A stretch of 63,071 nt of DNA, filler included, from Stramenopiles sp. TOSAG23-3 (GCA_900128585.1; 26 parts of 26 records of this genome joined end to end with filler, not necessarily neighbours in it); one strand, 5' to 3'; numbered from the whole stretch's first letter, positions 3,223-58,359 are shown. Notes: generated by a model not told the origin, from the sequence alone. Numbers and translations are program-made.

Positions 3223-3320
3223 AGGAATTAGTTCAAATTTTGGCTTTAAGGGAGTATATGTTGGACGCTTGCCGCTGCTGGCATTGATCCTTCGGTGCCT
3301 CGAATGGTACTGTCGTAGGG

Positions 3321-3725
3321 TTACGATTGGGTTAATACATTAACCTTGGGAGTCGATTCCTCTTCCTGTTTCGCTTTCAATTGGGTGTATTTCCACACAC
3401 TCTTCCACCGCTCCTCCGCTTGTTTATGACCAGACCGTAGTAGGTCAAAAAAAGAATCGATTGCAGAGATATTGCCTTCTACTTTGTCCATAAAGTGGTC
3501 GTCCACATCGAGGTGTTTCTTTTCGAACTTATCCTTCAGAGGCTTCTTAACTTCCGACCAAATGCCGTACGCACTATACATGGCATGCCCTTTTCTGTCC
3601 TTGATGTCCACAATGTGCTTGTGTCGCAAAGATTTCTCAATAAAGGAAGTCAATTCTTCTTTGTCATGCTCGTCGTCGAATTCCAAGTCGTCTTTAATGT
3701 CGGCCCATGCAACGCAAACGTTAAA
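3321..3725 (-). CDS. Hypothetical protein, probably an exon or fragment
   Basis: Open frame of at least 121 aa with charged, protein-like composition inside AT-rich DNA; no clear ATG start. Confidence 0.45.
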   Translation of the reverse strand, partial: FNVCVAWADIKDDLEFDDEHDKEELTSFIEKSLRHKHIVDIKDRKGHAMYSAYGIWSEVKKPLKDKFEKKHLDVDDHFMDKVEGNISAIDSFFDLLRSGHKQAEERWKSVWKYTQLKAKQEEESTPKVNVLTQS

Positions 3726-9699: not shown

Positions 9700-9803
9700 C
9701 ANNNNNNNNNNNNNNNNNNNNNNNNNNNNNNNNNNNNNNNNNNNNTTAATTAATTAANNNNNNNNNNNNNNNNNNNNNNNNNNNNNNNNNNNNNNNNNNN
9801 NAC

Positions 9804-12149
9804 GTCGGTCTTCTTGCTTGATTTTGAGGTGGGAACACACCGCCCTTTCTTACGTATAGAGTAGGTACGGGCCAGGCCAGGGCGGTTGCGAAGAAAAGCT
9901 GGGCCCATGTCTGCGCTAACACGCAACCCGAACAAGCTGACCCACACCGCCCAAAAACTCAGGGTAATTGCCCAAGTTTTTACGGTGCTAGCACGCGCAA
10001 GACTCTCAAATGAAGATTGACGGCCCCCGCCCCACTTAAAACGGGCCCAGTCTAGCCAACTACCCACGACAGGGGGCGTCAGAAATGCGGGAGGGTCCGA
10101 AGGCAGGGGAAGATCGTACAAGTACAGCCGTCTCCAGGGCGGGTACCTTTCCCGGCCGGACCCTAAAAGCACACTATTTCAGTCAAAGAAGCGAGACCAC
10201 TGAGAGGGACTTGTACGGTGCTTTGACAATCCAGCGTGCGCCCCTCGTTGAAGGTGTATAAGCTCTCAGTAAGCTTTAGATTTTAGATCAAAGTCTTGGG
10301 CAGCGTCTAAACAAGCGCGACGCAGCCTTTTGAGGACGATTCGAGGTAGACCCACACCGTGGTAAACTCCGTACCGGGCCTTTCAACTAGCCACCGGAAG
10401 CCTAAGGGCCGGCGTAGGCAATCGCAACCTTTTACTTGCCTGAGACCGGCCCCACACAGAACCAGAATAGCGTTCGAACTCAGCCGAAACCCCACTACCA
10501 TTTGTGGCGTACTTTATAAAGCTCTCGAGGCTTGGTAGATCGCATAAAATGTAACGTTCGTAGTTTGGGATACTAAAACCCTTATATTGGTAAACGCCCT
10601 TAGAAAACGGTTCTCAACCAAAACGGCCATTAAATTCAGACACAACAACTCTTCGCGTTTCTATGTCAAAATCTCATCTCCCTATACGACACATATCGTA
10701 GTTATCTTCGCTTTCTGACCGAATGTGTCGGAATGGGGTGGGGTAGAACATAGAGCCTGCGTAGTAGGTCAGAGGGTGCTGCTTAAAAGGAGAGTAGAGC
10801 ATAAAGTTCTGCACACCAACCTCAGTTATAGTTGAGCCCACAAAGAAAGCCCACCGACTTAAAGCAACCCCATGAGAGGAGCCTTCTCTGAACTCGTCGT
10901 ACATAAAAAGGCCCGAAGATTGGCTCAACACCTCCATAACATGCCAAACCTCGCCTATCGAAAGGAAAGAGTCGCCTCAACCCGGAGTTGCACGCTCGTA
11001 AGCGTGTGAAATGGTTAGCGCTTGACTGCTGGACAGAGCCGGCGCACCAGCAACCCAATCAAGACGGTCTCAAAACGTTATCGGCACTTTTCTATGATCA
11101 AAGCGTCATTTAGGTGTGACGAGCCCGTACCTTATCAATGCGGGGAGTGTGCTCTGGTAAACCTGGTCAGTGGTTTGGCTAAGGACCGACAAGCCAGGAT
11201 TACGAACTAAGAGGTAGGGTAGCAAGTGTAAGCCCTTGCGCCTTAAGCGGGAATCAAGCAAAAAAGCACGCCGCTGCTGCAACAAACGCTGGCGGTAAGG
11301 GACTAGCCCCAGCCCAAGGGAGGCGCCCCCCTTAAAAACGCACGAGCCCGCCTGCAGCACATTGGCCCTAAGCTTGGGGGGCAAGGCCTGGCTCAGACGC
11401 CAACCTTTCAGCCCCTGACCACGGCCGCGTAAAATATAGGGCGCTAAAATAGGCTTAAATAAAACCCTTGTGCGCCGCCATGAGAGGTTTGTGAGAAGGC
11501 CCACGCCCAGGCCAAACCGCACACCTAGCTCGGAGCGTGCTTGGGCCAACCCTTTCCCGACGGAGGCTTTACGGCCTTTAACACCAACCAACGATCGTAA
11601 CTCTGAGTAAAGAGCTCACTTGTTAGAGGGCACCAAAGCCCGGTGCCCACCTTTGCCAAATTTGGGTCCCGAGCTTAGACTCCAACTAAGCCGGGTTTTT
11701 AACCAAGGTACCTCCTTAGCCGGGCTAAGAACGGGCCCCCCGCCTGTAGGGGGCGAGTCAAGTGCCCCCCAATGCGGACCCACTAGCCTAGCGACCCTCG
11801 AGATATCAAGTGTAGGGCGCGCCTCCCGCTCGCCCAGGCTGTCGGGTAAACCAAAGCCTGTGCTAGTTTGGCGGACCTCCCTAGTAAGAAAGCGTAATCA
11901 ACGCCACCGCCGAAGTAGCCAACGCGGCACCCCCCGACGTTTTGTAGAAGCCTGCAAACGAGGCTTAAAGCGAACCTTTGATCTTAGAAGCCCCTTAAGG
12001 TAAGCCTCTCGCACCCTTTCAGAACTCCCGTACCCCTTTCTAGAGGGTGCAGAAAGTTGCGGACGCTTTGTAAAGCTGCTGAGACAAGGGCCAACTCGGA
12101 CGGACTTCGGGGCCCCCAAGCGACCACTTACGGAGACCCCCCCCCTTCC
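9804..12149 (-). CDS. Uninterrupted 782-codon frame if TGA is a sense codon (probably Trp, code 4); unknown basic protein, both ends missing
   Basis: Track ORFs 9750-10172, 10674-10937, 11106-11591 and 11898-12119 share one frame; hand translation of the gaps gives 10 TGA and no TAA/TAG. Confidence 0.85.
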
Positions 12150-15256: not shown

Positions 15257-17043
15257 TCACGCAGGCGACAAATCGAACAAAAAACTGACAGAGCCGGACA
15301 AGACGTGCTCCCTGGAGGCAGGCCACGATTCCCGCTCCGTGCGAGAGGCTGCGCTGAGGTTTCTGAACCATCGCGAGGTATTCTGGTGGTCTGATAAGCT
15401 TCTGCCGGCTGCCTTGAGCGCGTTGTACACGACGCAGTCTTCTGCGGACGCAACGTAGCCATTCGGGCCGAGCAAATAGCTCTGGTCGCTGAGGCGCTCA
15501 TCCAGCCAGGTCATGCCTTCGTCAGAAAACAGCTTCAGCCTCTTCTTCACCACTGGCACTTTTCGCTTTGTCGTTCTCTTACTGCTAATACTATGGCTGC
15601 TGTCACGGTTGTCCTTCGCCTTCACCTTTACGGCAACGTTTCCGTTCGCAGCGACGACATGCCCGGATCGTTGTTTCAAAAATGCTGCTTTTTTCCGAGC
15701 TGCTGCTTTCATGGCTTTCGTTGCGTGCTGGCAGTCGAGCTCCCTGGCGCAGGCGTCACCAAAGGGCATGAAATCGTCCTTGCCATTCAGCGATATGTAC
15801 GGGATGAGCACTTGGGGAATACAGACCCCGCCTTCCGTCTGATAATTTTCTAGAATTGCGCAAATCATTCTCTGAACAGCGCAGAGGGTGGAATTGACCA
15901 TGTGGACGTACTGCTTTTTGCCCCCGTGGATCATTTTCTTCGACCCGCACCGTATGTCCAGGGCGCGAGACAGGAAATCGGTGCAGTTGGAACACGATAC
16001 CACTTCCCGGTAAGCTTTTGAAGCCGGAAACCACGCTTCTACATCATACTTTAGGGACGTCGCCATGTTCAAATCTTTGCCTGCTACGGATACGACACGG
16101 TACGAAATTCCCAAACTCTGCAAGAACGCTTCCGCGTGTCCCAAAAATTCCTGGTGGATCCGGTCGGAGTCGTTCGGTTCGCACAGTGCAAATTGCTCCA
16201 CCTTTTCGAACTGGTGGACCCGGAACAGGCCATTAAGGTCCGTGGACGCCCTGCCTGCTTCGCGCCTGAAGCAGGTGGACGTTCCTGCGTATAGTATCGG
16301 CAGACTTTTCTCCTGGATCCACTCCGACTGGTGCATTGCCGATAAGGGTTGCTCGGACGTGGCGACCAAATGCTTGTCGCCCGTGGAATAAATCATTTCA
16401 CCAAAATCGTTCAATTGCACGGCCTGTTGGAGCATCGAAGGTTCCATGAAAAAGGGAGTGTAAACAGGGACAAAAGCGGGCGACCTAGAGCACAAAAAGT
16501 CCATGGCATACCGTTCCAGCGCCATCTTTAGCCGAACCAACTCACCTTTTAAGAAATACCCACGCCTCCCGGCAACGCTTGCTCCACGGATAGCGTCAAT
16601 TCCCCCTTTGAGCATTTCCGCCAATTTCCCGTGGGCACGGGGAACAAATTTTGAGTCCTTACTCAGCGCTTTTCCAACCGGTAGGGCTGTTTTATTCGGT
16701 TTCCATTCTCTCAGTACCCTGTCGGCTTCGGTCACCCTCGTGTCAAGAATATTCCCCAGCCTGTGGAGAAGCGCGTCCCGAGTCTCGCACTCCTGCTTTC
16801 CTTTCTCCTCCTCCGCCGCGACTCTCTTTGCTAGCTGTTTCGAAGCCTCCTTCTCGGCGTCTGGCGACAAATTCGCACGCACCTTGTCCCTAATGGACTT
16901 TGTTATGGCCGCTCTTTGTTTTCGTAAATTATCGATCGTCTGCCTTCCCGTCCTCCAAATTTCGTCTGCAGCAATTATACTATTTACCAAACTCTCGCCA
17001 TCCCCATTGCCCCGACGACATTCCGACTTTACGCAAACGCTTG
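15257..17043 (-). CDS. SARS1: Cytosolic-type seryl-tRNA synthetase with a C-terminal EF1B-like GST domain (5' partial)
   Basis: LVATSEQPL, motif 2 CFRREAG..GLFRVHQFEKVEQF, KYDVEAWFP, REVVSCSNCTDF, motif 3 YVHMVNSTLCAVQRMICAILENYQ. Confidence 0.96.
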
Positions 17044-17143: not shown

Positions 17144-19418
17144 GGGTCATTTACGGTGGCAGATCGTGTCCAACGCCATTTCCCAGTATTAGCATGCGAT
17201 ATTCCATCAGAACAAGATGCCAAAGCAATTTATTTCCAGATCTTGGATGGCCATTTAACATCTGGGTTCTCAAACGATATTGCATGCCATGCTCAAGCTA
17301 TGGTAGACGCCACTGTTCATATTCACAAAATTGTGCTCGACAAGTTTTTGCCAAGTGCAATAAAATTTGTGTACAATTGGAATCTGCGGGAAATGTCGAA
17401 CATCGTCAGAGGACTTTGTAGCACTGTCCCTAATGCGTTTGGGAGGAGTTCAGACGCATTTATCCGACTTTGGCTGCATGAAGCCAACCGTGTCTTCGCC
17501 GATCGCATGGTAAACGAGAAAGAGGAAGAAAGGTTTAACATCATTGCCATAGATACCGTGAAAAAGTACTACTCGGACGCTTGCGATGTAGAAAAAGTCC
17601 TGGACCCGGAAGGCCTGATTTTCACTAATTTTTGTGGGTCAAAGGGCAAAGGGTTCTACTGCCAGGTTCCGTCCGAAGAAGTGCTAAACGAGGAATTGGT
17701 ATCCAAGCTTGCAGAATATAACGAATCGAATTCAATAATGGACTTGGTCCTCTTCAAGCAAGCGATGGAGCACGTGTGCAGAATTTCTAGGATTATTAGC
17801 AGCCCAGGAGGCAATGCAATGCTTATTGGAGTAGGTGGTAGCGGGAAGCAGAGTTTGTCTAAACTTGCAGGCTTTATCAGTGGTTGCCAAATTGAACAGC
17901 TCAACATCAGCTCGAAATTCACCGAAGACGATCTGAAAGAAGAACTTCGAAGAATTTATTTACAGGCTGGAGTGAAAGGTGTCTACACGCTTTTGATTAT
18001 GACCGACGCCCAGATTGTCGACGACAAGTTTTTGGTGTCCATCAATAATATTCTTGCTAGCGGTGACGTGCCTGGCCTGTTCGAGAAGGAAGACCAAGAG
18101 GGCATTAGCTCCGGTCTAAGAGCCCCGGCGAAAGCGGCCGGTGTAATCGACACGCCCGATTCAATGTACGCATTCTTTATTCGCCGAGTAAGACAATACC
18201 TGCATTTGTCGCTGTGCTTTTCTCCCGTTGGAGACTGGTTCCGAATCAGGGCACGGCGATTCCCAGGGTTAATCAATTGCACAATGATTGACCAGTTTCA
18301 CCCATGGCCTCGTGAAGCGCTCGTGTCTGTTGCCACTAGGTTCATTAACGACATTGACACAATCGATCCTGAAATTTTAGAAAATATTGCTCACAATATG
18401 GCCGAAGCCCACTTGTGCGTCGTTACCATCAGCGATAAATACAAAGAGCAAGAGCGCCGTTTCAATTACGTCACACCAAAAAGTTTTCTCGAACTTATCA
18501 GCTTCTACAAGTCCCTCTACTCCCAAAAGACGGCTGGCCTGCAAAAGCTGATCGATCGACTTGACATCGGTCTGAGCACACTAAAGAAAACGGCTGAAGA
18601 CGTTTCAGAACTTCAAGTAGACTTGGACCATACTATGGTGAAAGTGGACGAAAAAAGAAAAGGGACAGAAATTCTTTTGGAAAATATGGGGAAACAGCGT
18701 GCCGAAGCGGAGGTGTTCCAAGAGAGCGCAAGCGAAGAAGCAGAAAAGGCCGGAAAAGCATCTAGCGAGGCCCAAGCCATCGAAGAGAAGGCCGAGGGTG
18801 AACTAGCAGAGGCAAAGCCAGCTATGGATGCCGCAAATGACGCTGTCAATTGTTTGGATAAAGCAAGTCTAGGAGAATTGAAGGGGTTTGCCAACCCACC
18901 TAATGGTGTAGACGTTGTAATGAAAGCCGTCCTGATGATGTTGGAGGGAGAATTTAAGAACCATTCGTGGGACAGGGCTAAGAAAATGATGAAAGACCTC
19001 GGCGGCTTTCTTGAGAGGTTAAAAAGCTTTGATGCGGAGGGAATGGACGACCATCTAGTGAACAAGCTACGCCCCATAACAGAAAACCCTGTAATGGCCT
19101 TTGACGTAATGACAAAGAAGTCGAAAGCAGCTGCAAACCTTTCAAACTGGGCGTGCAACGTATTCCGATACAATCGAATTTACGTCAAAGTGAAGCCGTT
19201 GATGGACTCGTTGGAAGAGGCGCGAAAGAAAAAGGCAGCCGCGGAGGCATCACTTGCCGGGGCTCAAAAGATTGTTGCTGAAATTAACAAAAAATTAGGT
19301 GGACTCCGGGAAGAGTTAATGGCTGCGACCCAAGAGAAAGCGAAAGTAGAGGCCGAGGCAGCTGCATGCCAAGGAAGATTAGACCTGGCCACCCGATTAG
19401 TCGGGGGGCTGGCATCTT
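17144..19418 (+). CDS. Axonemal dynein heavy chain, internal fragment (end of AAA3, AAA4, stalk/MTBD)
   Basis: RLWLHEANRVFADR, MDLVLFKQAMEHVCRISRII, P-loop GVGGSGKQSL, RARRFPGLINCT, YVTPKSFLELI, stalk coiled coil. Confidence 0.97.
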
Positions 19419-19488
19419 GTTCTGATGGAATATCGCATGCTAATACTGGGAAATGGCGTTGGACACGATCTGCCACCGTAAATGACCC
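19410..19488 (-). repeat. 79-bp perfect inverted copy of 17144-17222 (probable amplification or assembly chimera)
   Basis: Exact reverse complement of the contig start; replaces the dynein frame after LVGGLAS. Confidence 0.9.
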
Positions 19489-19729
19489 NNNNNNNNNNNN
19501 NNNNNNNNNNNNNNNNNNNNNNNNNNNNNNNNTTAATTAATTAANNNNNNNNNNNNNNNNNNNNNNNNNNNNNNNNNNNNNNNNNNNNTCAAAGTCATGT
19601 ATCTCCATCTACACACTTTCCGGTTAATTGTTTGCACTCTATTAGACGAAGGGGGCGACATTGGAATCGAGAATGAATGCCCTTCTCACATAAAATTGCC
19701 TTCATCCTCATGAAGAAGGAACGAAAGAA

Positions 19730-48701: not shown

Positions 48702-49056
48702 TGGCATAGTCCATTGGCAGGGCCGTTGGGAGATAGGCACGGAATATCCGGAGCCCTGATGCTATGGACTTGGCGACCCCATTCAAGACGTTCCGCTGGC
48801 AGATTCGCATCTGCCAATCCATCCATCTCTGGCGGGCTGCTATGTAGCTGAAGCTTCCCCCGGTGAGCGGGGTGGGGAATTTTATTTCCGCGAGACGGTT
48901 GAGGAGGTCTTGGGCCCCATTCGAGAAAGCTCCGGTGAGGCTCATCCCAAAAAGTGCTATTTTGGGGGCGCCGTTGTTGGCCGGGTTCAGGCGGTGCAGG
49001 ATGTCTAGCGCTTCGGCGTTTCCCTGGTCTTCTCTGAAATCGTTCCATGCTTGCAT
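48702..49056 (-). mobile_element. Probable C-terminal fragment of a restriction-like-endonuclease non-LTR retrotransposon ORF (CRE-like)
   Basis: IALFGMSLTGAFSNGAQDLLNRLA...RWMDWQMRICQRNVLNGVAKSI resembles the P..(E)T.G.....A...L..LA ... LQR.NA..I tail of RLE elements; no RT motifs visible. Confidence 0.45.
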
Positions 49057-51018
49057 GGCTGTTATTAAAAAACAAGAAAATTGGCTGTTATTTAAGTAAT
49101 TAAATTTAGCTTCCTCATACCCTAATCCTAACTTCATTCTGAAATTTTGTTTTTTCGTTGTTGGTATTTAAGTAATTAAAATTAATGTACTGCGAACTGA
49201 AATCTAGATTTAGACATTCTAGGTTTGCATTCCTTCATGAACTTGATCTGAATCAGTATAGATGGATTAACACTGCTTCCACATGACCCATAATCAACTT
49301 CCTCATCCGGTGTTCCACTCGTAGATGGCTCATTCCTTGAGTGATCTTCAAAGCAGCGGCTTAATTGTTTTAGAGGTGCTCGTTGTCTGCTACGTAAATT
49401 AGTTAAGGGATTGTCATTTCTTCTGATGATTGAGGTGAGGATTGTATCTCGGTGTCTTCATCCGAGGATGACACTACTAGGGACAAGGCAATGCTGGATT
49501 GCTCTCTGCTGGATTGTGGTGAGGACTGGAATGAAGTGTCATTCCCGGAAACCGTGTCGTCCCCGGAGGATAGCACTATTATAGTCGGGGTACTGCCGGG
49601 GTCATCGCTGCTGGAATGCTCGTCCTCCGAGAATTGTGGTTCTGTGTCAGAGGCCGAATATTTTTATTGAAATAAAAATAAACCTAATTCAGTGTTTATT
49701 TAAAAGCAAAGAACTGGCTGTTATTTAAAGTAATTAAAATTTATCTTCCTCGCGTGTACCGGGAGGTAAATTTTAAAAAAATGGCTGTTATTTTAAGTGT
49801 AGTTAAAAATTATCTTCTTCGCATACTGCGAACTTATCTCTGCCCCTGAGATTTTACTAAATCAATATATACCCTTGTCACTTTAGTCTTGACTATCATT
49901 CTCATGTGTACTCCGTTAATAAGTAAATGTTTTCAATTTGCAAGGTTAATTTGGTGTTAAAAACCATTCAGGTTAATGGTTCTTTTCAGAAGATTTACAC
50001 GTTGTTGTGATGAAATAAGAAAATTATATTTAAAACAAAAACTATTTCAGTTTATCTAAATTATACGAAGTAAGTAAATGTTTCCATGCGATTGGTAGCA
50101 TTAGTGTTTTCATTTGATCGTAAACCACTTAGGTTTATTTTTTCTTAAACCATTTGGGTCAATTTTTCTTCTTCCGTCTCAAGTTTCTATCATATTACCA
50201 TGATAACTTAAAAAATAAATTGGCTGTTATTTAAGTAATTACGACGTAAAATTTATCCTCCTCACGTACCGCGGATGTGAATCTGCTCCTTTTATCCACT
50301 AAAGGTTTTATGTTTCTTCATGTACTGCTAACTTATATTTTCGCTTTTTAGAATTTGATTTTAAAAGGAAGAAAAAAAGACTATTGATAATTCACTTGAT
50401 CTAAATTTATTAAGTAAAATGCCAAACAAAATTTATGGTGTTAATGAGATATTAATCTAAAACGTTATATGAATACTTTCCATGCATGCAATACAACATC
50501 TAAATTAGATTAATTCAAATTATTGACCTGATAATTTAGATAAACTGAATTATGTTTTATTTTTTATTTTACCTGAATTGTTTAAAATCAAATTGAAATA
50601 TTTACTTATTATTTAGATATATTGATTAGTAAAATCACAGGAACAGAGATAAGTTTGCAGTACACGAAGAATCGTAAACCTTTAATGGACAGAAGGAATA
50701 GATTCACCTTAGCGGTACACGAAGAAGATAAATTTTAATTTCTTAAATAACAGCCAGTTTTTTGTTTTTAATTTAGATAAAGTGAATAATTAAGTTTTTT
50801 TTTATATATAAGTTTGAGTGAGACGCCGGACGAGGAAGTTGATTATGGGTCATCTGGAAGCATTGCTAATCCACTTACCGATTCAGATCATGCATGGAGT
50901 ACATCTGAGATTGATAGCTAAGACTAAATGACAAGGGTATATCGATTAGTAAAACCACAAGAGCAAAGATAAGTTCGCAGTACATGAAGGAATGTAAACC
51001 TCGAATGTTTAGTAGATT
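49057..51018. repeat. Dense nest of the dispersed repeat family in both orientations
   Basis: Terminal module near 49057, 49070, 49705, 49778, 50215 (one orientation) and 50745 (opposite); internal modules at 49182-49420, 49825-49895, 50625-50735 and 50815-51005. Confidence 0.88.
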
Positions 51019-55848: not shown

Positions 55849-56316
55849 NNNNNNNNNNNNNNNNNNNNNNNNNNNNNNNNNNNNNNNNNNNNTTAATTAA
55901 TTAANNNNNNNNNNNNNNNNNNNNNNNNNNNNNNNNNNNNNNNNNNNNTTGACCAAACTCTCTTAAGAACAAAACCAAGTGTTTTTATAAGTTCTTAAAA
56001 ACAAAAAAATGGCTGTTACACAAGTGTAATTCTTAAGGTAGTTCACAGTTCACAGAAAATAATTTTTACAACACTATTATATATAGAAAACAAATTATAT
56101 AGTATGTTGAGAAACAAATTATATGTGTTGTATATATTAAAATACACTCTCGTGTTAAGTTTATAAAATATATTTACGGTAAGAGGGTAAGAATTATTAT
56201 ATGTACGACTGTACGACACGAACTCGTGTCGTTAAAAGAGTCATGCTCACCCTGCTATTATTTTGAGGTCGTGCATGTTAGAAACACACACCAATTAAAT
56301 TAGCCGCTTTGGCCCC

Positions 56317-57421
56317 TTAAACTACTGCTTTGGCTTTGACCTTCTTGATCGGTGTCTTTTTTTTCGCTGCTTTTTTGGCTTTTGCCGCAGTTTTCTTCAC
56401 TTTCAACGCTTTCTTGGCCGCTTTGGTTTCAGACATCAAGTCTCCTCGTTTCGTGGGGCACTTGGCTACGTATTCTGGCACCAACTCGCTCACTAAGCGC
56501 TTGATGGTCTTGTATGGGTCAATGGACGCATCGAATACCAGGGCGCTGCTGCGGGAAATCGAGTTGATTTTTCGGTGTTGAAAGTTGGTCAGGGCATTCC
56601 AAACTAACGTGGTCTTGATAGATACCGTTTCGTGCAGAATCCTTGTCACCAAGTCATCGTATCCACCGTTTTGGAACAACGTCTTCAGGTTCTCAAACAT
56701 TTTGGGGTTCCCTTCTTTCAACAAGTTCTGTAGAACTTGGTACAGAGACCCTGTTCGCTTTCCTTTGATTGTCGAGACGATGTAGTTGAACACATTTTCA
56801 CGAGCATTTTGGTCGATGATGTCATCAATGTCCGTCTCGTTGAAAAACTCATTCAAACCCTTCATGGAAGCCACGACTTCGGGGTTGATCTCAGACGGTT
56901 CGCTAAGGATATTTTTCGGGCCCTTGCTGTTAACCAAACCAGAGGATGCATCAGACATTGACAGCCGGAATCCTTTTCCGGGACTTTTTCCGTTTTTGCC
57001 TTTTCCACCGATGGATCTGCGCTTTTTGGAGGGGGGGGGCAGTTGAGTTTCCGCCTTGCGTCCGCTTGTATCCACTGCGGGGGTTGTCGTTCAAGGTGCC
57101 GATTTCACCGGACAAGATTGCCAAAGCCCTTGCCTCGTGCAAGTTTTGCTTTTGAACACGGTTGTCGAACCACTTGCGGACTTGTTGGTATTGAAGCTCC
57201 AACTTGAGGGCCAAATCACGCATGTAATTTTGACCTTCTTTCCCTTTTGGAAGGCATTTGGATTGAAATACTCGTTCCAGCTCTTCTTTTTGGTCCTGTC
57301 TCAACGGGACACGTTTTCTTCGAACGATCTGTTTCGTTGAGCCGTTCGCCAATTTCAAGGTGTAGCCGTGAGTGGCGGCGGCCTTGTTGGGGCTTGAGGA
57401 TGGGGCAGCACGTGATGGCAT
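56317..57421 (-). CDS. Homeodomain protein with Lys/Ala-rich tail, frameshifted at a C9 run
   Basis: RRKRV...DQKEELERVF...LALKLEL...QVRKWFDNR; a second ORF (56317-57075) overlaps across the run at 57031-57039. Confidence 0.75.
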
Positions 57422-58359
57422 TTTGGATAAGTAGAGGAAGTGTGTTTGGGTTCTTTCGTTTTTAAATGAATTCAAATCGCTTACAATTGTTTGTTTTGTC
57501 TCTAGAGGAATAAGATGGAACCAAATCGTAGACTTTCGTCTCAAAGTAAACCAATTTCCATTGCCTTTCTCGCAAGCGCACAAGAACACCATTCCTTGAA
57601 GGAATGAATTAGTTAGTTATGGTATCTTCATATTAAAATTGATTGAGATTCGATTTGGAATACGACTCGAATCAATCAGACGAATCCTCACTATCTCCCT
57701 GTATTTCCCCCTGAACTAACCATTCTCTTTATAACATAAACACAGCATGGTATCAATTCTGATAATTAAAAAATAAGGATTGTTCCAATGCTGTGTGGTG
57801 TAATTTCTTTCTTTTTTCTTTTTTCGTTCGTTATTTAAAGGGAATTTGTGATAAAAAAAAGAAGGATTGTTCCATTGCTGTGTAATGTAAATTTAAATTT
57901 TTCGTTTCGGGATCGGGATGAAGGTTTGGTTCAATTCTATGCTGTGTCTATCATACAAGAATTTTAGGAATCAACCACCTTAACATCTAAATAGCATATA
58001 AAGGTTTTTTTCGTTTTAACGATTTTAGTAAAAGGCGGATTAACCGGAAAGAAGGATTAATGCTCTGTCCATATTATGTCAGTTGTAAATCAATGATGAC
58101 CAATCAAAATAACTTAAACCAAAAATTATTATTACATCCACATAGCGTTACGTAATGGAAAGTAACTCTTTCGTTTGCTCAAAATCATTTTATGATGTGT
58201 TTGGGGAAAAATTCAAATCAATTGTTATACTATATATATTTATTATCACCACGCAATNNNNNNNNNNNNNNNNNNNNNNNNNNNNNNNNNNNNNNNNNNN
58301 NTTAATTAATTAANNNNNNNNNNNNNNNNNNNNNNNNNNNNNNNNNNNNNNNNNNNNTC

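What the first reader, a model, noticed from the sequence alone, without database searches (positions are those of the whole stretch)
9802..12149. Whole contig is one 782-codon frame that only works if TGA is a sense codon: a second genetic code in the assembly
Seen: four short minus-strand ORFs in the track share one frame. Hand translation of the gaps gives TGA at + coordinates 10179, 10266, 10383, 10614, 10674, 10977, 11070, 11106, 11616 and 11898, and no TAA or TAG from end to end; a rough estimate for random sequence near 50% GC is about 20 such stops. Contexts (FFD*NS, KAY*ELI, FG*EPF, IGR*DFD, ITF*DRLDW, PK*RFD) suit Trp, and TGG is also used. Genes on other contigs end in TGA (e.g. 7139, 21145, 15257), so this is not the host nuclear code. 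The contig lacks the AT-rich spacers and repeat family seen elsewhere and encodes an R/L/G-rich basic protein I cannot assign. Established: UGA=Trp (table 4) is common in protist mitochondria, and ciliate mtDNA carries long divergent ORFs. Inference: an unusually GC-rich mitochondrial genome (host, prey or contaminant), a NUMT, or a recoded element/virus. In-frame TTA codons argue against the thraustochytrid TTA-stop code.
Basis: partly seen in the sequence, partly recalled or inferred. Interest (0 to 1): 0.82.

Follow-up and report, generated by a model that had tools for sequence, protein, structure and literature searches.

The report
Mitochondrial gene fragment reading UGA as tryptophan
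The odd contig is a piece of a GC-rich mitochondrial genome in which TGA codes for tryptophan, which is ordinary for mitochondria, but the gene it belongs to is a very large protein with no known relatives.

Summary
Window 9802-12149 is one whole 2348-nt contig, and its minus frame has 782 codons with 0 TAA, 0 TAG and 10 TGA. In 2000 shuffles the longest TAA/TAG-free run was 456 codons.

It is not a complete replicon. Other runs carry it inside 7.6-9.3 kb contigs, and two metagenome contigs of 27 and 47 kb also hold it. There it forms codons 895-1676 of a 1720-codon ORF with 24 TGA that ends in TAG. The ORF starts 22 nt after cox2, and a 73-nt tRNA with anticodon UCA lies 3.2 kb upstream.

Differences between copies are mostly synonymous (15 of 21, ratio about 0.13) and include TGA/TGG swaps. 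This is therefore a fragment of a GC-rich (0.54-0.55) mitochondrial genome using table 4.

The ORF itself is an orphan. Pfam, NCBIfam and PDB sequence searches gave no hits. Its N-terminal half matched only same-species fragments and one 58%-identical fragment among 1.84 billion representatives.

The second genetic code has an ordinary cause. The GC richness and the giant unknown genes are moderately unusual.

The parts
9802..12149 (-). Internal fragment (codons 895-1676) of a 1720-codon mitochondrial ORF, open end to end only if TGA is read as sense
   Evidence: The frame has 782 codons with 0 TAA/TAG and 10 TGA. It matches L001 9918-7571 and L002 2377-4724 at 99.1% identity with no gaps. The full ORF is L001 4889-10051 with 24 TGA and a TAG stop. 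Against L001 there are 21 differences, 15 synonymous and 6 not.
11106..11108 (-). TGA codon (residue 348) that is TGG in another run
   Evidence: The contig of run X2 has + strand T>C at 11106, which turns the minus-strand TGA into TGG (sequence read).
10197..10199 (-). TGG codon (residue 651) that is TGA in other copies
   Evidence: The window has TGG and L001 has TGA. The RNA contig of X15 shows the same C>T at 10197.
11340..11342 (-). TGC codon (Cys, residue 270) that is TGA in other copies
   Evidence: The window has TGC and L001 has TGA. X15 shows G>T at 11340. This is the one swap that would fit TGA=Cys instead of Trp.
10179..11900 (-). Span holding the ten in-frame TGA codons (low coordinates 10179, 10266, 10383, 10614, 10674, 10977, 11070, 11106, 11616, 11898)
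   Evidence: Table-4 translation lists W84, 178, 348, 360, 391, 492, 512, 589, 628 and 657 as TGA.

Best explanation
The contig is a fragment of the mitochondrial genome of an uncultured, widespread marine eukaryote. The genome is GC-rich (about 0.55) and is translated with UGA = tryptophan (NCBI table 4). A mitochondrion-encoded tRNA with anticodon UCA reads both UGA and UGG, while TAA/TAG remain the stops. That is why this frame looks broken under the standard code, whereas the nuclear contigs beside it use TGA as a stop. The frame belongs to a real, selected protein gene of 1720 codons lying between cox2 and another large hydrophobic ORF on the same strand. Shown here: the open frame, the cox2 neighbour, the tRNA(UCA), the TAG stops, the synonymous-biased variation, and the lack of known relatives for the N-terminal half. 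Inferred: the Trp identity of TGA, and the organelle (not bacterial) nature of the genome. The product is basic (pI 10.4), has predicted N-terminal membrane helices, and has no detectable family. My best guess at its role is a lineage-specific or unrecognisably diverged inner-membrane-anchored, nucleic-acid- or ribosome-associated mitochondrial protein. That guess rests on composition only, and I give it about 0.25.
For: The frame has 0 TAA/TAG in 782 codons, against a maximum of 456 in 2000 shuffles. The stretch sits inside longer contigs in 3 of 3 DNA-labelled runs laid: 7636, 8813 and 9268 nt. It also sits in two metagenome contigs of 27369 and 47553 nt. In L001 the upstream ORF is COX2 (PF00116 E=1.2e-53, PF02790 E=5e-17). 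Its membrane and CuA domains share one frame only if 2 TGA are read through. Both cox2 and the 1720-codon ORF end in TAG. Six tRNA genes lie on L001, including a normal 73-nt cloverleaf with anticodon TCA at 1628-1700. Window versus L001 gives 21 differences: 16 at codon position 3, 15 synonymous and 6 not, ratio about 0.13. TGA/TGG swaps occur at two codons. In 124 conserved cox2 columns, ATA=I, AGG=R and CTN=L fit table 4. A 60-aa fragment from another organism is 58% identical to residues 589-645 of the ORF (E=2.4e-11). The sequence is present at 0.91-1.00 of sampled words in 14 DNA-labelled marine runs of 7 studies (3 of which may be the source), and at 0.35-0.80 in 6 RNA runs of 4 studies.
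Against: No TGA could be checked against a conserved Trp column. Both cox2 TGA codons fall in a lineage-specific insertion, and every conserved W column there uses TGG. One TGC/TGA swap would fit Cys. Only about 12.3 kb of the two contigs could be read. cox1, cob, nad genes and rRNAs were not seen, so the organelle assignment rests on cox2, the tRNAs and the gene layout. The run labels 'DNA?' are guesses by the tool. The amino-acid composition of the ORF is close to that of shuffled sequence, apart from low Cys and high Lys, as expected for a weakly constrained protein. The C-terminal half, which is the window's own part, was tested only against Pfam and PDB sequences, not against the large protein collections.
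Confidence: 0.88

Rival explanations
1. The stretch belongs to a reduced bacterial endosymbiont that reads UGA as Trp and is GC-rich, as Hodgkinia does, and not to a mitochondrion.
For: GC 0.55 together with UGA=Trp is the Hodgkinia combination (PMC2704378, abstract in the search listing). Among the COX2 hits, several carry a fused subunit I domain (PF00115) or the JGI name 'heme/copper-type cytochrome/quinol oxidase subunit 2'. I read these as bacterial, though the call gives no organism for them.
Against: In 12.3 kb the only recognised protein gene is cox2. It is not followed by ctaD but by two giant orphan ORFs. There are interspersed tRNA genes, 22-56 nt spacers, and a degenerate duplicate of tRNA-Met plus the cox2 5' end. 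The exact 40-mer was absent from one genome each of 185,579 prokaryote species. The best named COX2 hits are plant and glaucophyte mitochondrial proteins.
Confidence: 0.04
2. The frame is a capsidless RNA virus (mitovirus- or narnavirus-like, about 2.3 kb with a single RdRp ORF and UGA=Trp) captured in the assembly.
For: The contig length of 2348 nt, one end-to-end frame and UGA as sense fit a mitovirus at first sight. The sequence is present in metatranscriptomes.
Against: There was no Pfam hit at E<=1, so nothing to the mitovirus polymerase family either. The stretch is internal to 7.6-47 kb contigs next to cox2 and tRNA genes. Runs labelled DNA hold it. The IMG/VR viral contigs hold no relative.
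Confidence: 0.01
3. It is a nuclear copy of mitochondrial DNA (NUMT) or another dead sequence whose frame is open by composition.
For: The amino-acid composition resembles shuffled sequence. No family was recognised.
Against: There are 1720 codons without TAA/TAG where shuffles give 2.5% stops. Variation is synonymous-biased. There is a 58% relative at protein level. No nuclear flank was seen in any of the longer contigs read.
Confidence: 0.02
4. The ORF is real but is not a native mitochondrial function. It could be a domesticated or decaying insert (for example from a mitochondrial plasmid or other mobile element) or a run-on fusion of several short genes.
For: It has orphan status, giant size, random-like composition, and flat GC over the codon positions (0.57/0.51/0.54 versus 0.56/0.43/0.64 in cox2). 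The neighbourhood shows duplication and degenerate gene pieces.
Against: No polymerase, reverse transcriptase or endonuclease domain was found at E<=0.1. There are no internal repeats and no paralogue in the readable DNA. The ORF shows purifying selection, the same strand and tight spacing as cox2, and near identity across 11 studies.
Confidence: 0.15

Closest known systems
Protist and fungal mitochondrial genomes translated with NCBI table 4 (UGA=Trp)
   Same: In-frame TGA, TAA/TAG stops, a mitochondrion-encoded tRNA with anticodon UCA, cox2 and tRNA genes packed on one strand. The reassignment is common in mitochondria (PMC4824035, section 16, passages read).
   Different: GC is about 0.55, whereas most such genomes are AT-rich. 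The range quoted for ochrophyte mitogenomes is 24-38% (PMC4824035, section 9).
The short list of GC-rich mitochondrial genomes (Candida subhashii 52.7%, Polytomella capuana 57.2%, Diplonema about 55%)
   Same: Overall GC is above 50% (PMC3438683, Table 1 and sections 6 and 8, passages read).
   Different: Diplonemid genes are in small pieces on many circles (PMC12699882, abstract in the listing). That their mtDNA carries no tRNA genes is recalled, not checked. Here cox2 is whole and tRNA genes are present. That C. subhashii also reads UGA as Trp is recalled, not checked. None of these is reported to carry a 1720-codon orphan, as far as the passages I read go.
Candidatus Hodgkinia cicadicola
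   Same: GC-rich small genome with UGA recoded to Trp (PMC2704378, title and abstract in a search listing only).
   Different: It is an insect-hosted bacterium with recognisable bacterial genes. Here there is only cox2, tRNAs and orphans, in marine plankton.
Lineage-specific or unrecognisably diverged mitochondrial ORFs (ciliate ymf ORFs; new genes in eustigmatophyte mitogenomes)
   Same: Long mitochondrial ORFs without detectable homologues. Some ciliate ones later proved to be diverged ribosomal proteins (PMC3318907, abstract in a search listing). The emergence of new mitochondrial genes is discussed in PMC4824035, section 17.
   Different: No sequence relation to any of them was tested. The size (1720 aa) and GC-neutral codon make-up are unusual.
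Mitoviruses (Mitoviridae)
   Same: About 2.3-3 kb, one long frame, and UGA=Trp in hosts whose mitochondria use it (recalled).
   Different: No RdRp signature. The stretch lies inside a DNA genome next to cox2.

Membership tests
Mitochondrial genome using table 4 (UGA=Trp) | In-frame TGA inside a conserved mitochondrial gene that must be read through | tested here: met
   The cox2 membrane domain (PF02790, residues 152-246) and CuA domain (PF00116, to residue 536) share one frame that contains 2 TGA and ends in TAG.
Mitochondrial genome using table 4 (UGA=Trp) | TGA codons align with conserved Trp columns of homologues | tested here: inconclusive
   Both cox2 TGA codons fall in an insertion that is gapped in 57-60 of 60 homologues. 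Conserved W columns use TGG. The orphan ORF has no homologues to align.
Mitochondrial genome using table 4 (UGA=Trp) | Genome-encoded tRNA-Trp with anticodon UCA | tested here: met
   L001 1628-1700 is a 73-nt normal cloverleaf with anticodon tca and an Rfam tRNA score of 58.7 bits. Its charging with Trp is inferred, not shown.
Mitochondrial genome using table 4 (UGA=Trp) | TGA not used as a stop; TAA/TAG used | tested here: met
   2 of 2 genes with a visible end (cox2, ORF1720) stop at TAG. This is a small sample.
Mitochondrial genome using table 4 (UGA=Trp) | Core mitochondrial gene set (cox1, cob, nad, rRNAs) on the same molecule | not testable with these tools
   Only 11129 and 9152 nt of the 27369- and 47553-nt contigs are held, and the records are not searchable. 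Within the readable part there are cox2 and 6 tRNAs, plus a weak ATP synthase c-like ORF (E=0.0094).
Mitochondrial genome using table 4 (UGA=Trp) | Other codons keep their standard meaning | tested here: met
   In 124 conserved cox2 columns, ATA=I (1 of 1), AGG=R (1 of 1), CTN=L (7 of 9) and TTA=L (1 of 2). The counts are small.
Mitoviridae / narna-like RNA replicon | RNA-dependent RNA polymerase domain | tested here: not met
   0 Pfam families at E<=1 for the 782-aa translation and at E<=0.1 for the 1720-aa ORF.
Mitoviridae / narna-like RNA replicon | Self-contained genome of about the contig's length | tested here: not met
   The stretch is internal to contigs of 7.6-47 kb.
NUMT | Nuclear flanks and loss of coding constraint | tested here: not met
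   The flanks are cox2, tRNAs and another TGA-containing ORF. The nonsynonymous/synonymous ratio is about 0.13.
Known mitochondrial protein families (rps3, other ribosomal proteins, plasmid-type polymerases, maturases) | Profile match to the family | tested here: not met
   No Pfam match, no NCBIfam match for the N-terminal half beyond E=0.11, and no PDB sequence match at E<=1 for the window's part. Profile-profile and fold comparison of the C-terminal part were not run.

The most novel reading that the evidence does not exclude
ORF1720, and the at least 729-codon hydrophobic ORF after it, are founding members of new mitochondrion-encoded protein families. They sit in a GC-rich, UGA=Trp mitogenome of a cosmopolitan uncultured marine flagellate. 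These would be large, selected genes that arose or diverged beyond recognition inside an organelle genome and have a function not yet known for mitochondrial DNA.
Probability: 0.35. Interest if true: 0.55.

Novelty: new member of a known kind. Interest (0 to 1): 0.35.

Why it matters
For annotating this assembly, the contig must be translated with table 4 and kept apart from the nuclear bin. Under the standard code its gene is cut into pieces of at most 169 codons.

More broadly, UGA-to-Trp recoding is usually linked to AT-rich small genomes, so a 55% GC mitogenome with 24 TGA codons in one gene is another exception worth placing on the tree.

The gene is near-identical in marine samples of 11 studies and is under purifying selection. 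Yet half of it has no relative among 1.84 billion protein representatives. That makes it a concrete example of unknown organelle-encoded proteins in abundant uncultured protists.

Tried and rejected
- **rRNA or other known RNA:** 0 Rfam families at gathering score in the whole window, and no tRNA in the window.
- **Antisense shadow of a GC-rich gene on the + strand:** every + frame has 19-42 TAA+TAG. ORFs in other frames of the locus gave 0 Pfam families.
- **Mitovirus:** see the rivals.
- **Whole genome of the window:** not held. The records behind L001/L002 are not searchable.
- **The protein-atlas search:** I stopped that step, so no language-model or Atlas structure look-up exists for the window's part.
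- **Relatives in IMG/VR:** none with the 782-aa translation or with the N-terminal 894 aa.
- **Relatives in one genome per prokaryote species:** none.
- **AlphaFold2 of the N-terminal 894 aa without an alignment:** mean pLDDT 36.6, pTM 0.26, with 798 of 894 residues under 50. No fold search was run on it because a low-confidence model gives meaningless matches.
- **Internal repeats or paralogy with the neighbouring ORFs:** none below E=0.1.
- **Earlier notes of this scan:** nothing by place, sequence or words.
- **Naming the host:**
  - The nuclear seryl-tRNA synthetase is 100% identical to an unnamed EukProt/NCBI/ENA protein, and the next best hit is 56%.
  - The best named dynein hits (49-51%) carry truncated names starting 'Floren' and 'Prob', which I read as stramenopile algae. 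This is a weak hint only.
- **Literature on a matching mitogenome:**
  - Five searches found no description of one.
  - The most relevant paper (Wideman et al. 2020, Nat Microbiol) is not held.
  - Supplements (for example the mitochondrial contig tables of PMC8599508) are closed.
  - So I cannot say the mitogenome is unpublished.
- **Contig 55949-58257:** it has a 387-codon TAA/TAG-free run with 4 TGA, but it looks like an ordinary nuclear gene with a break, not a second recoded contig.
- **Runs X21-X24:** they hold next to none of the words and say nothing.

Full report
**Observation.** The window is not one piece of DNA. It is 26 contigs of 2353 to 2306 nt, sorted by length and joined by runs of N around TTAATTAATTAA. 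The finding covers one whole contig, 9802-12149 (2348 nt, GC 0.54). Its minus frame 0 has 782 codons with no TAA, no TAG, 10 TGA and 19 TGG, while the other five frames carry 19-42 TAA+TAG each. In 2000 shuffles the longest TAA/TAG-free run over six frames averaged 195 codons and never exceeded 456. None of the other 25 contigs behaves this way. In most of them the longest frame grows by 0-34 codons when TGA is allowed, consistent with TGA acting as a stop there. The two that grow more, 48702-51018 and 55949-58257, still have no end-to-end frame.

**Not a complete unit.** The contig occurs at 0.91-1.00 of its sampled words in 14 marine runs labelled 'DNA?' from 7 studies; 3 of those studies may be the source of this DNA. 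It occurs at 0.35-0.80 in 6 metatranscriptome runs from 4 studies. Four runs were laid on it:
- In all three DNA-labelled runs the stretch lies inside a longer contig: 7636, 8813 and 9268 nt.
- In the RNA run it lies in contigs of 3551 and 1205 nt.

An exact 40-mer from the contig was absent from IMG/VR and from one genome each of 185,579 prokaryote species. It was present in two metagenome contigs of 27369 and 47553 nt, of which 11129 nt (L001) and 9152 nt (L002) are held. The window contig matches both at 99.1% with no gaps. L001 and L002 match each other at 99.975% over 7987 nt.

**Context.** Read with table 4, the frame continues on both sides. The full ORF is L001 4889-10051, 1720 codons with 24 TGA and 41 TGG, ending in TAG. 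The window holds codons 895-1676.
- **Upstream gene:** 22 nt upstream on the same strand ends an ORF that is COX2 (PF00116 E=1.2e-53, PF02790 E=5e-17).
- **Downstream gene:** 56 nt downstream starts another TGA-containing hydrophobic ORF of at least 729 codons with no family match.
- **tRNA genes:** L001 also carries six tRNA genes: Met, Asn, Lys, Leu(UAG), a second Met, and one with anticodon TCA at 1628-1700. The TCA tRNA is a normal 73-nt cloverleaf, not the long selenocysteine type, and ARAGORN calls it tRNA-Trp under code 4.

A U-starting anticodon that reads UGA and UGG together is the standard way mitochondria read UGA as Trp (established knowledge).

**Is TGA sense, and is it Trp?**
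- The two conserved halves of cox2 share a frame only if two TGA codons between them are read through. The gene then ends at TAG.
- Those two TGA codons lie in an insertion between the HQWYW motif and the CuA domain, and this insertion is gapped in 57-60 of 60 aligned homologues. The classical test (TGA in conserved W columns) therefore could not be made. Every conserved W column uses TGG.
- TGA and TGG replace each other between copies at two codons: residue 348 in run X2 and residue 651 in L001 and X15.
- One TGC/TGA swap at residue 270 would fit Cys instead.
- Other codons keep their standard meaning in 124 conserved cox2 columns, with small counts.

Trp is the best reading, mainly because of the tRNA(UCA). 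It is inferred, not proven.

**Is the frame a real gene?** Window and L001 differ at 21 sites: 16 at codon position 3, 3 at position 2 and 2 at position 1. Fifteen are synonymous and six are not, giving a ratio of about 0.13. Shuffled sequence of the same composition read with table 4 has 2.5% stops, whereas the ORF has none in 1720 codons. A 60-aa protein fragment from another organism is 58% identical to residues 589-645 (E=2.4e-11). This is a selected protein-coding gene.

**What is the protein?**
- **Family searches:** Pfam gave nothing at E<=1 for the window's 782 aa and nothing at E<=0.1 for the full ORF. PDB sequences gave nothing at E<=1. NCBIfam gave nothing meaningful for the N-terminal half.
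- **Large protein collection:** The N-terminal 894 aa, scored against 1.84 billion cluster representatives, matched 7 proteins. Six are 92-99% identical fragments of 64-160 aa, which I read as the same gene cut at TGA by standard-code gene callers. The seventh is the 58% fragment.
- **Physical features:** The product is basic (pI 10.4). It has hydrophobic stretches at about residues 14-32, 115-180 and 701-724 and no internal repeats. Its amino-acid make-up is close to that of shuffled sequence, apart from low Cys and high Lys. GC is flat over the codon positions: 0.57/0.51/0.54, against 0.56/0.43/0.64 in cox2.
- **Structure prediction:** AlphaFold2 without an alignment gave no usable model of the N-terminal half (mean pLDDT 36.6).
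- **Gap in the evidence:** Its orphan status therefore rests on Pfam and PDB sequences only.

My committed guess is a membrane-anchored, nucleic-acid- or ribosome-associated lineage-specific protein. It rests on charge and hydropathy alone and is weak.

**Whose mitochondrion?** The neighbouring contigs are nuclear and eukaryotic: dynein heavy chain, importin, seryl-tRNA synthetase and LRR proteins. The synthetase is 100% identical to an unnamed protein held by NCBI, ENA and EukProt, and its next relative is 56% identical. The best named dynein hits (49-51%) have truncated names that I read as stramenopile algae. No tool here could link the mitochondrial contig to these nuclear contigs, so 'host' versus 'prey or co-binned organism' stays open.

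No COX2 above 77% identity or 31% coverage was found. This was among the 120 best listed of 3289 hits, with lengths of 315-1005 aa. The mitogenome therefore has no annotated close relative in that protein collection. Gene callers using the standard code would have split such genes, so this is not proof that the DNA is undescribed.

**Comparison and novelty.** UGA=Trp in mitochondria is textbook (PMC4824035, section 16, passages). GC above 50% in mtDNA is rare and confined to a short eclectic list (PMC3438683, abstract, Table 1 and sections 6 and 8, passages). Ochrophyte mitogenomes were reported at 24-38% GC (PMC4824035, section 9). The pairing of high GC with UGA=Trp is known from Hodgkinia (PMC2704378, search listing only). 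The finding is a new member of a known kind. The second code is explained by an organelle, the contig is a fragment of a bigger gene, and what remains interesting is a GC-rich table-4 mitogenome with giant, selected orphan genes in a widespread marine protist.

Noticed in passing
window 1-63071: The window is an artificial join of 26 contigs sorted by length (2353 to 2306 nt), each separated by about 100 nt of N around TTAATTAATTAA. Coordinates across spacers have no biological meaning.
   Followed up: yes
L001 3142-4866 (+): cox2 carries a lineage-specific insertion of roughly 150 aa between the HQWYW motif and the CuA domain, with 2 TGA and 5 TGG codons. It is gapped in 57-60 of 60 aligned homologues. 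This is the same place where cox2 is split in some other lineages (PMC4824035, section 13).
   Followed up: partly
L001 1-139 versus 3240-3378; ORF 185-385: There is a 90.6%-identical duplicate of the tRNA-Met region. It is followed by a short ORF that resembles the start of mature COX2 (WQLLF...PVLEG). This looks like a degenerate copy of tRNA-Met plus the cox2 5' end.
   Followed up: partly
L001 853-1488 (+): A 211-codon ORF has a weak match to ATP synthase subunit c (NCBIfam E=0.0094, 16 bits against a cut-off of 85) and, by eye, a GxGxGxG...ARN pattern. It may be a very diverged or decaying atp9.
   Followed up: partly
L002 1-2187 (-) = L001 10108-11127 (+): A second large orphan lies directly after ORF1720. 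It has at least 729 codons, 5 TGA, many hydrophobic stretches and pI 10.5, with no Pfam or NCBIfam match.
   Followed up: partly
L001 3143-11129 versus L002 1166-9152: Two contigs of one metagenome assembly share at least 7987 nt at 99.975%, and the alignment runs to the ends of the held pieces. This could be a large repeat of the mitogenome or two assembly paths; the boundaries were not visible.
   Followed up: no
window 15257-16990 (-) and 17156-19540 (+): The nuclear genes of the assembly have few relatives. The seryl-tRNA synthetase has an exact copy in EukProt/NCBI/ENA, but its next hit is 56% identical. The best dynein heavy chain hit is 61%. The organism seems to be a poorly sampled marine flagellate lineage.
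   Followed up: partly
window 55949-58257 (-): A 387-codon TAA/TAG-free run contains 4 TGA in a 40% GC contig. The translation looks like a lysine-rich nuclear protein interrupted by a break or intron, not a recoded gene.
   Followed up: partly
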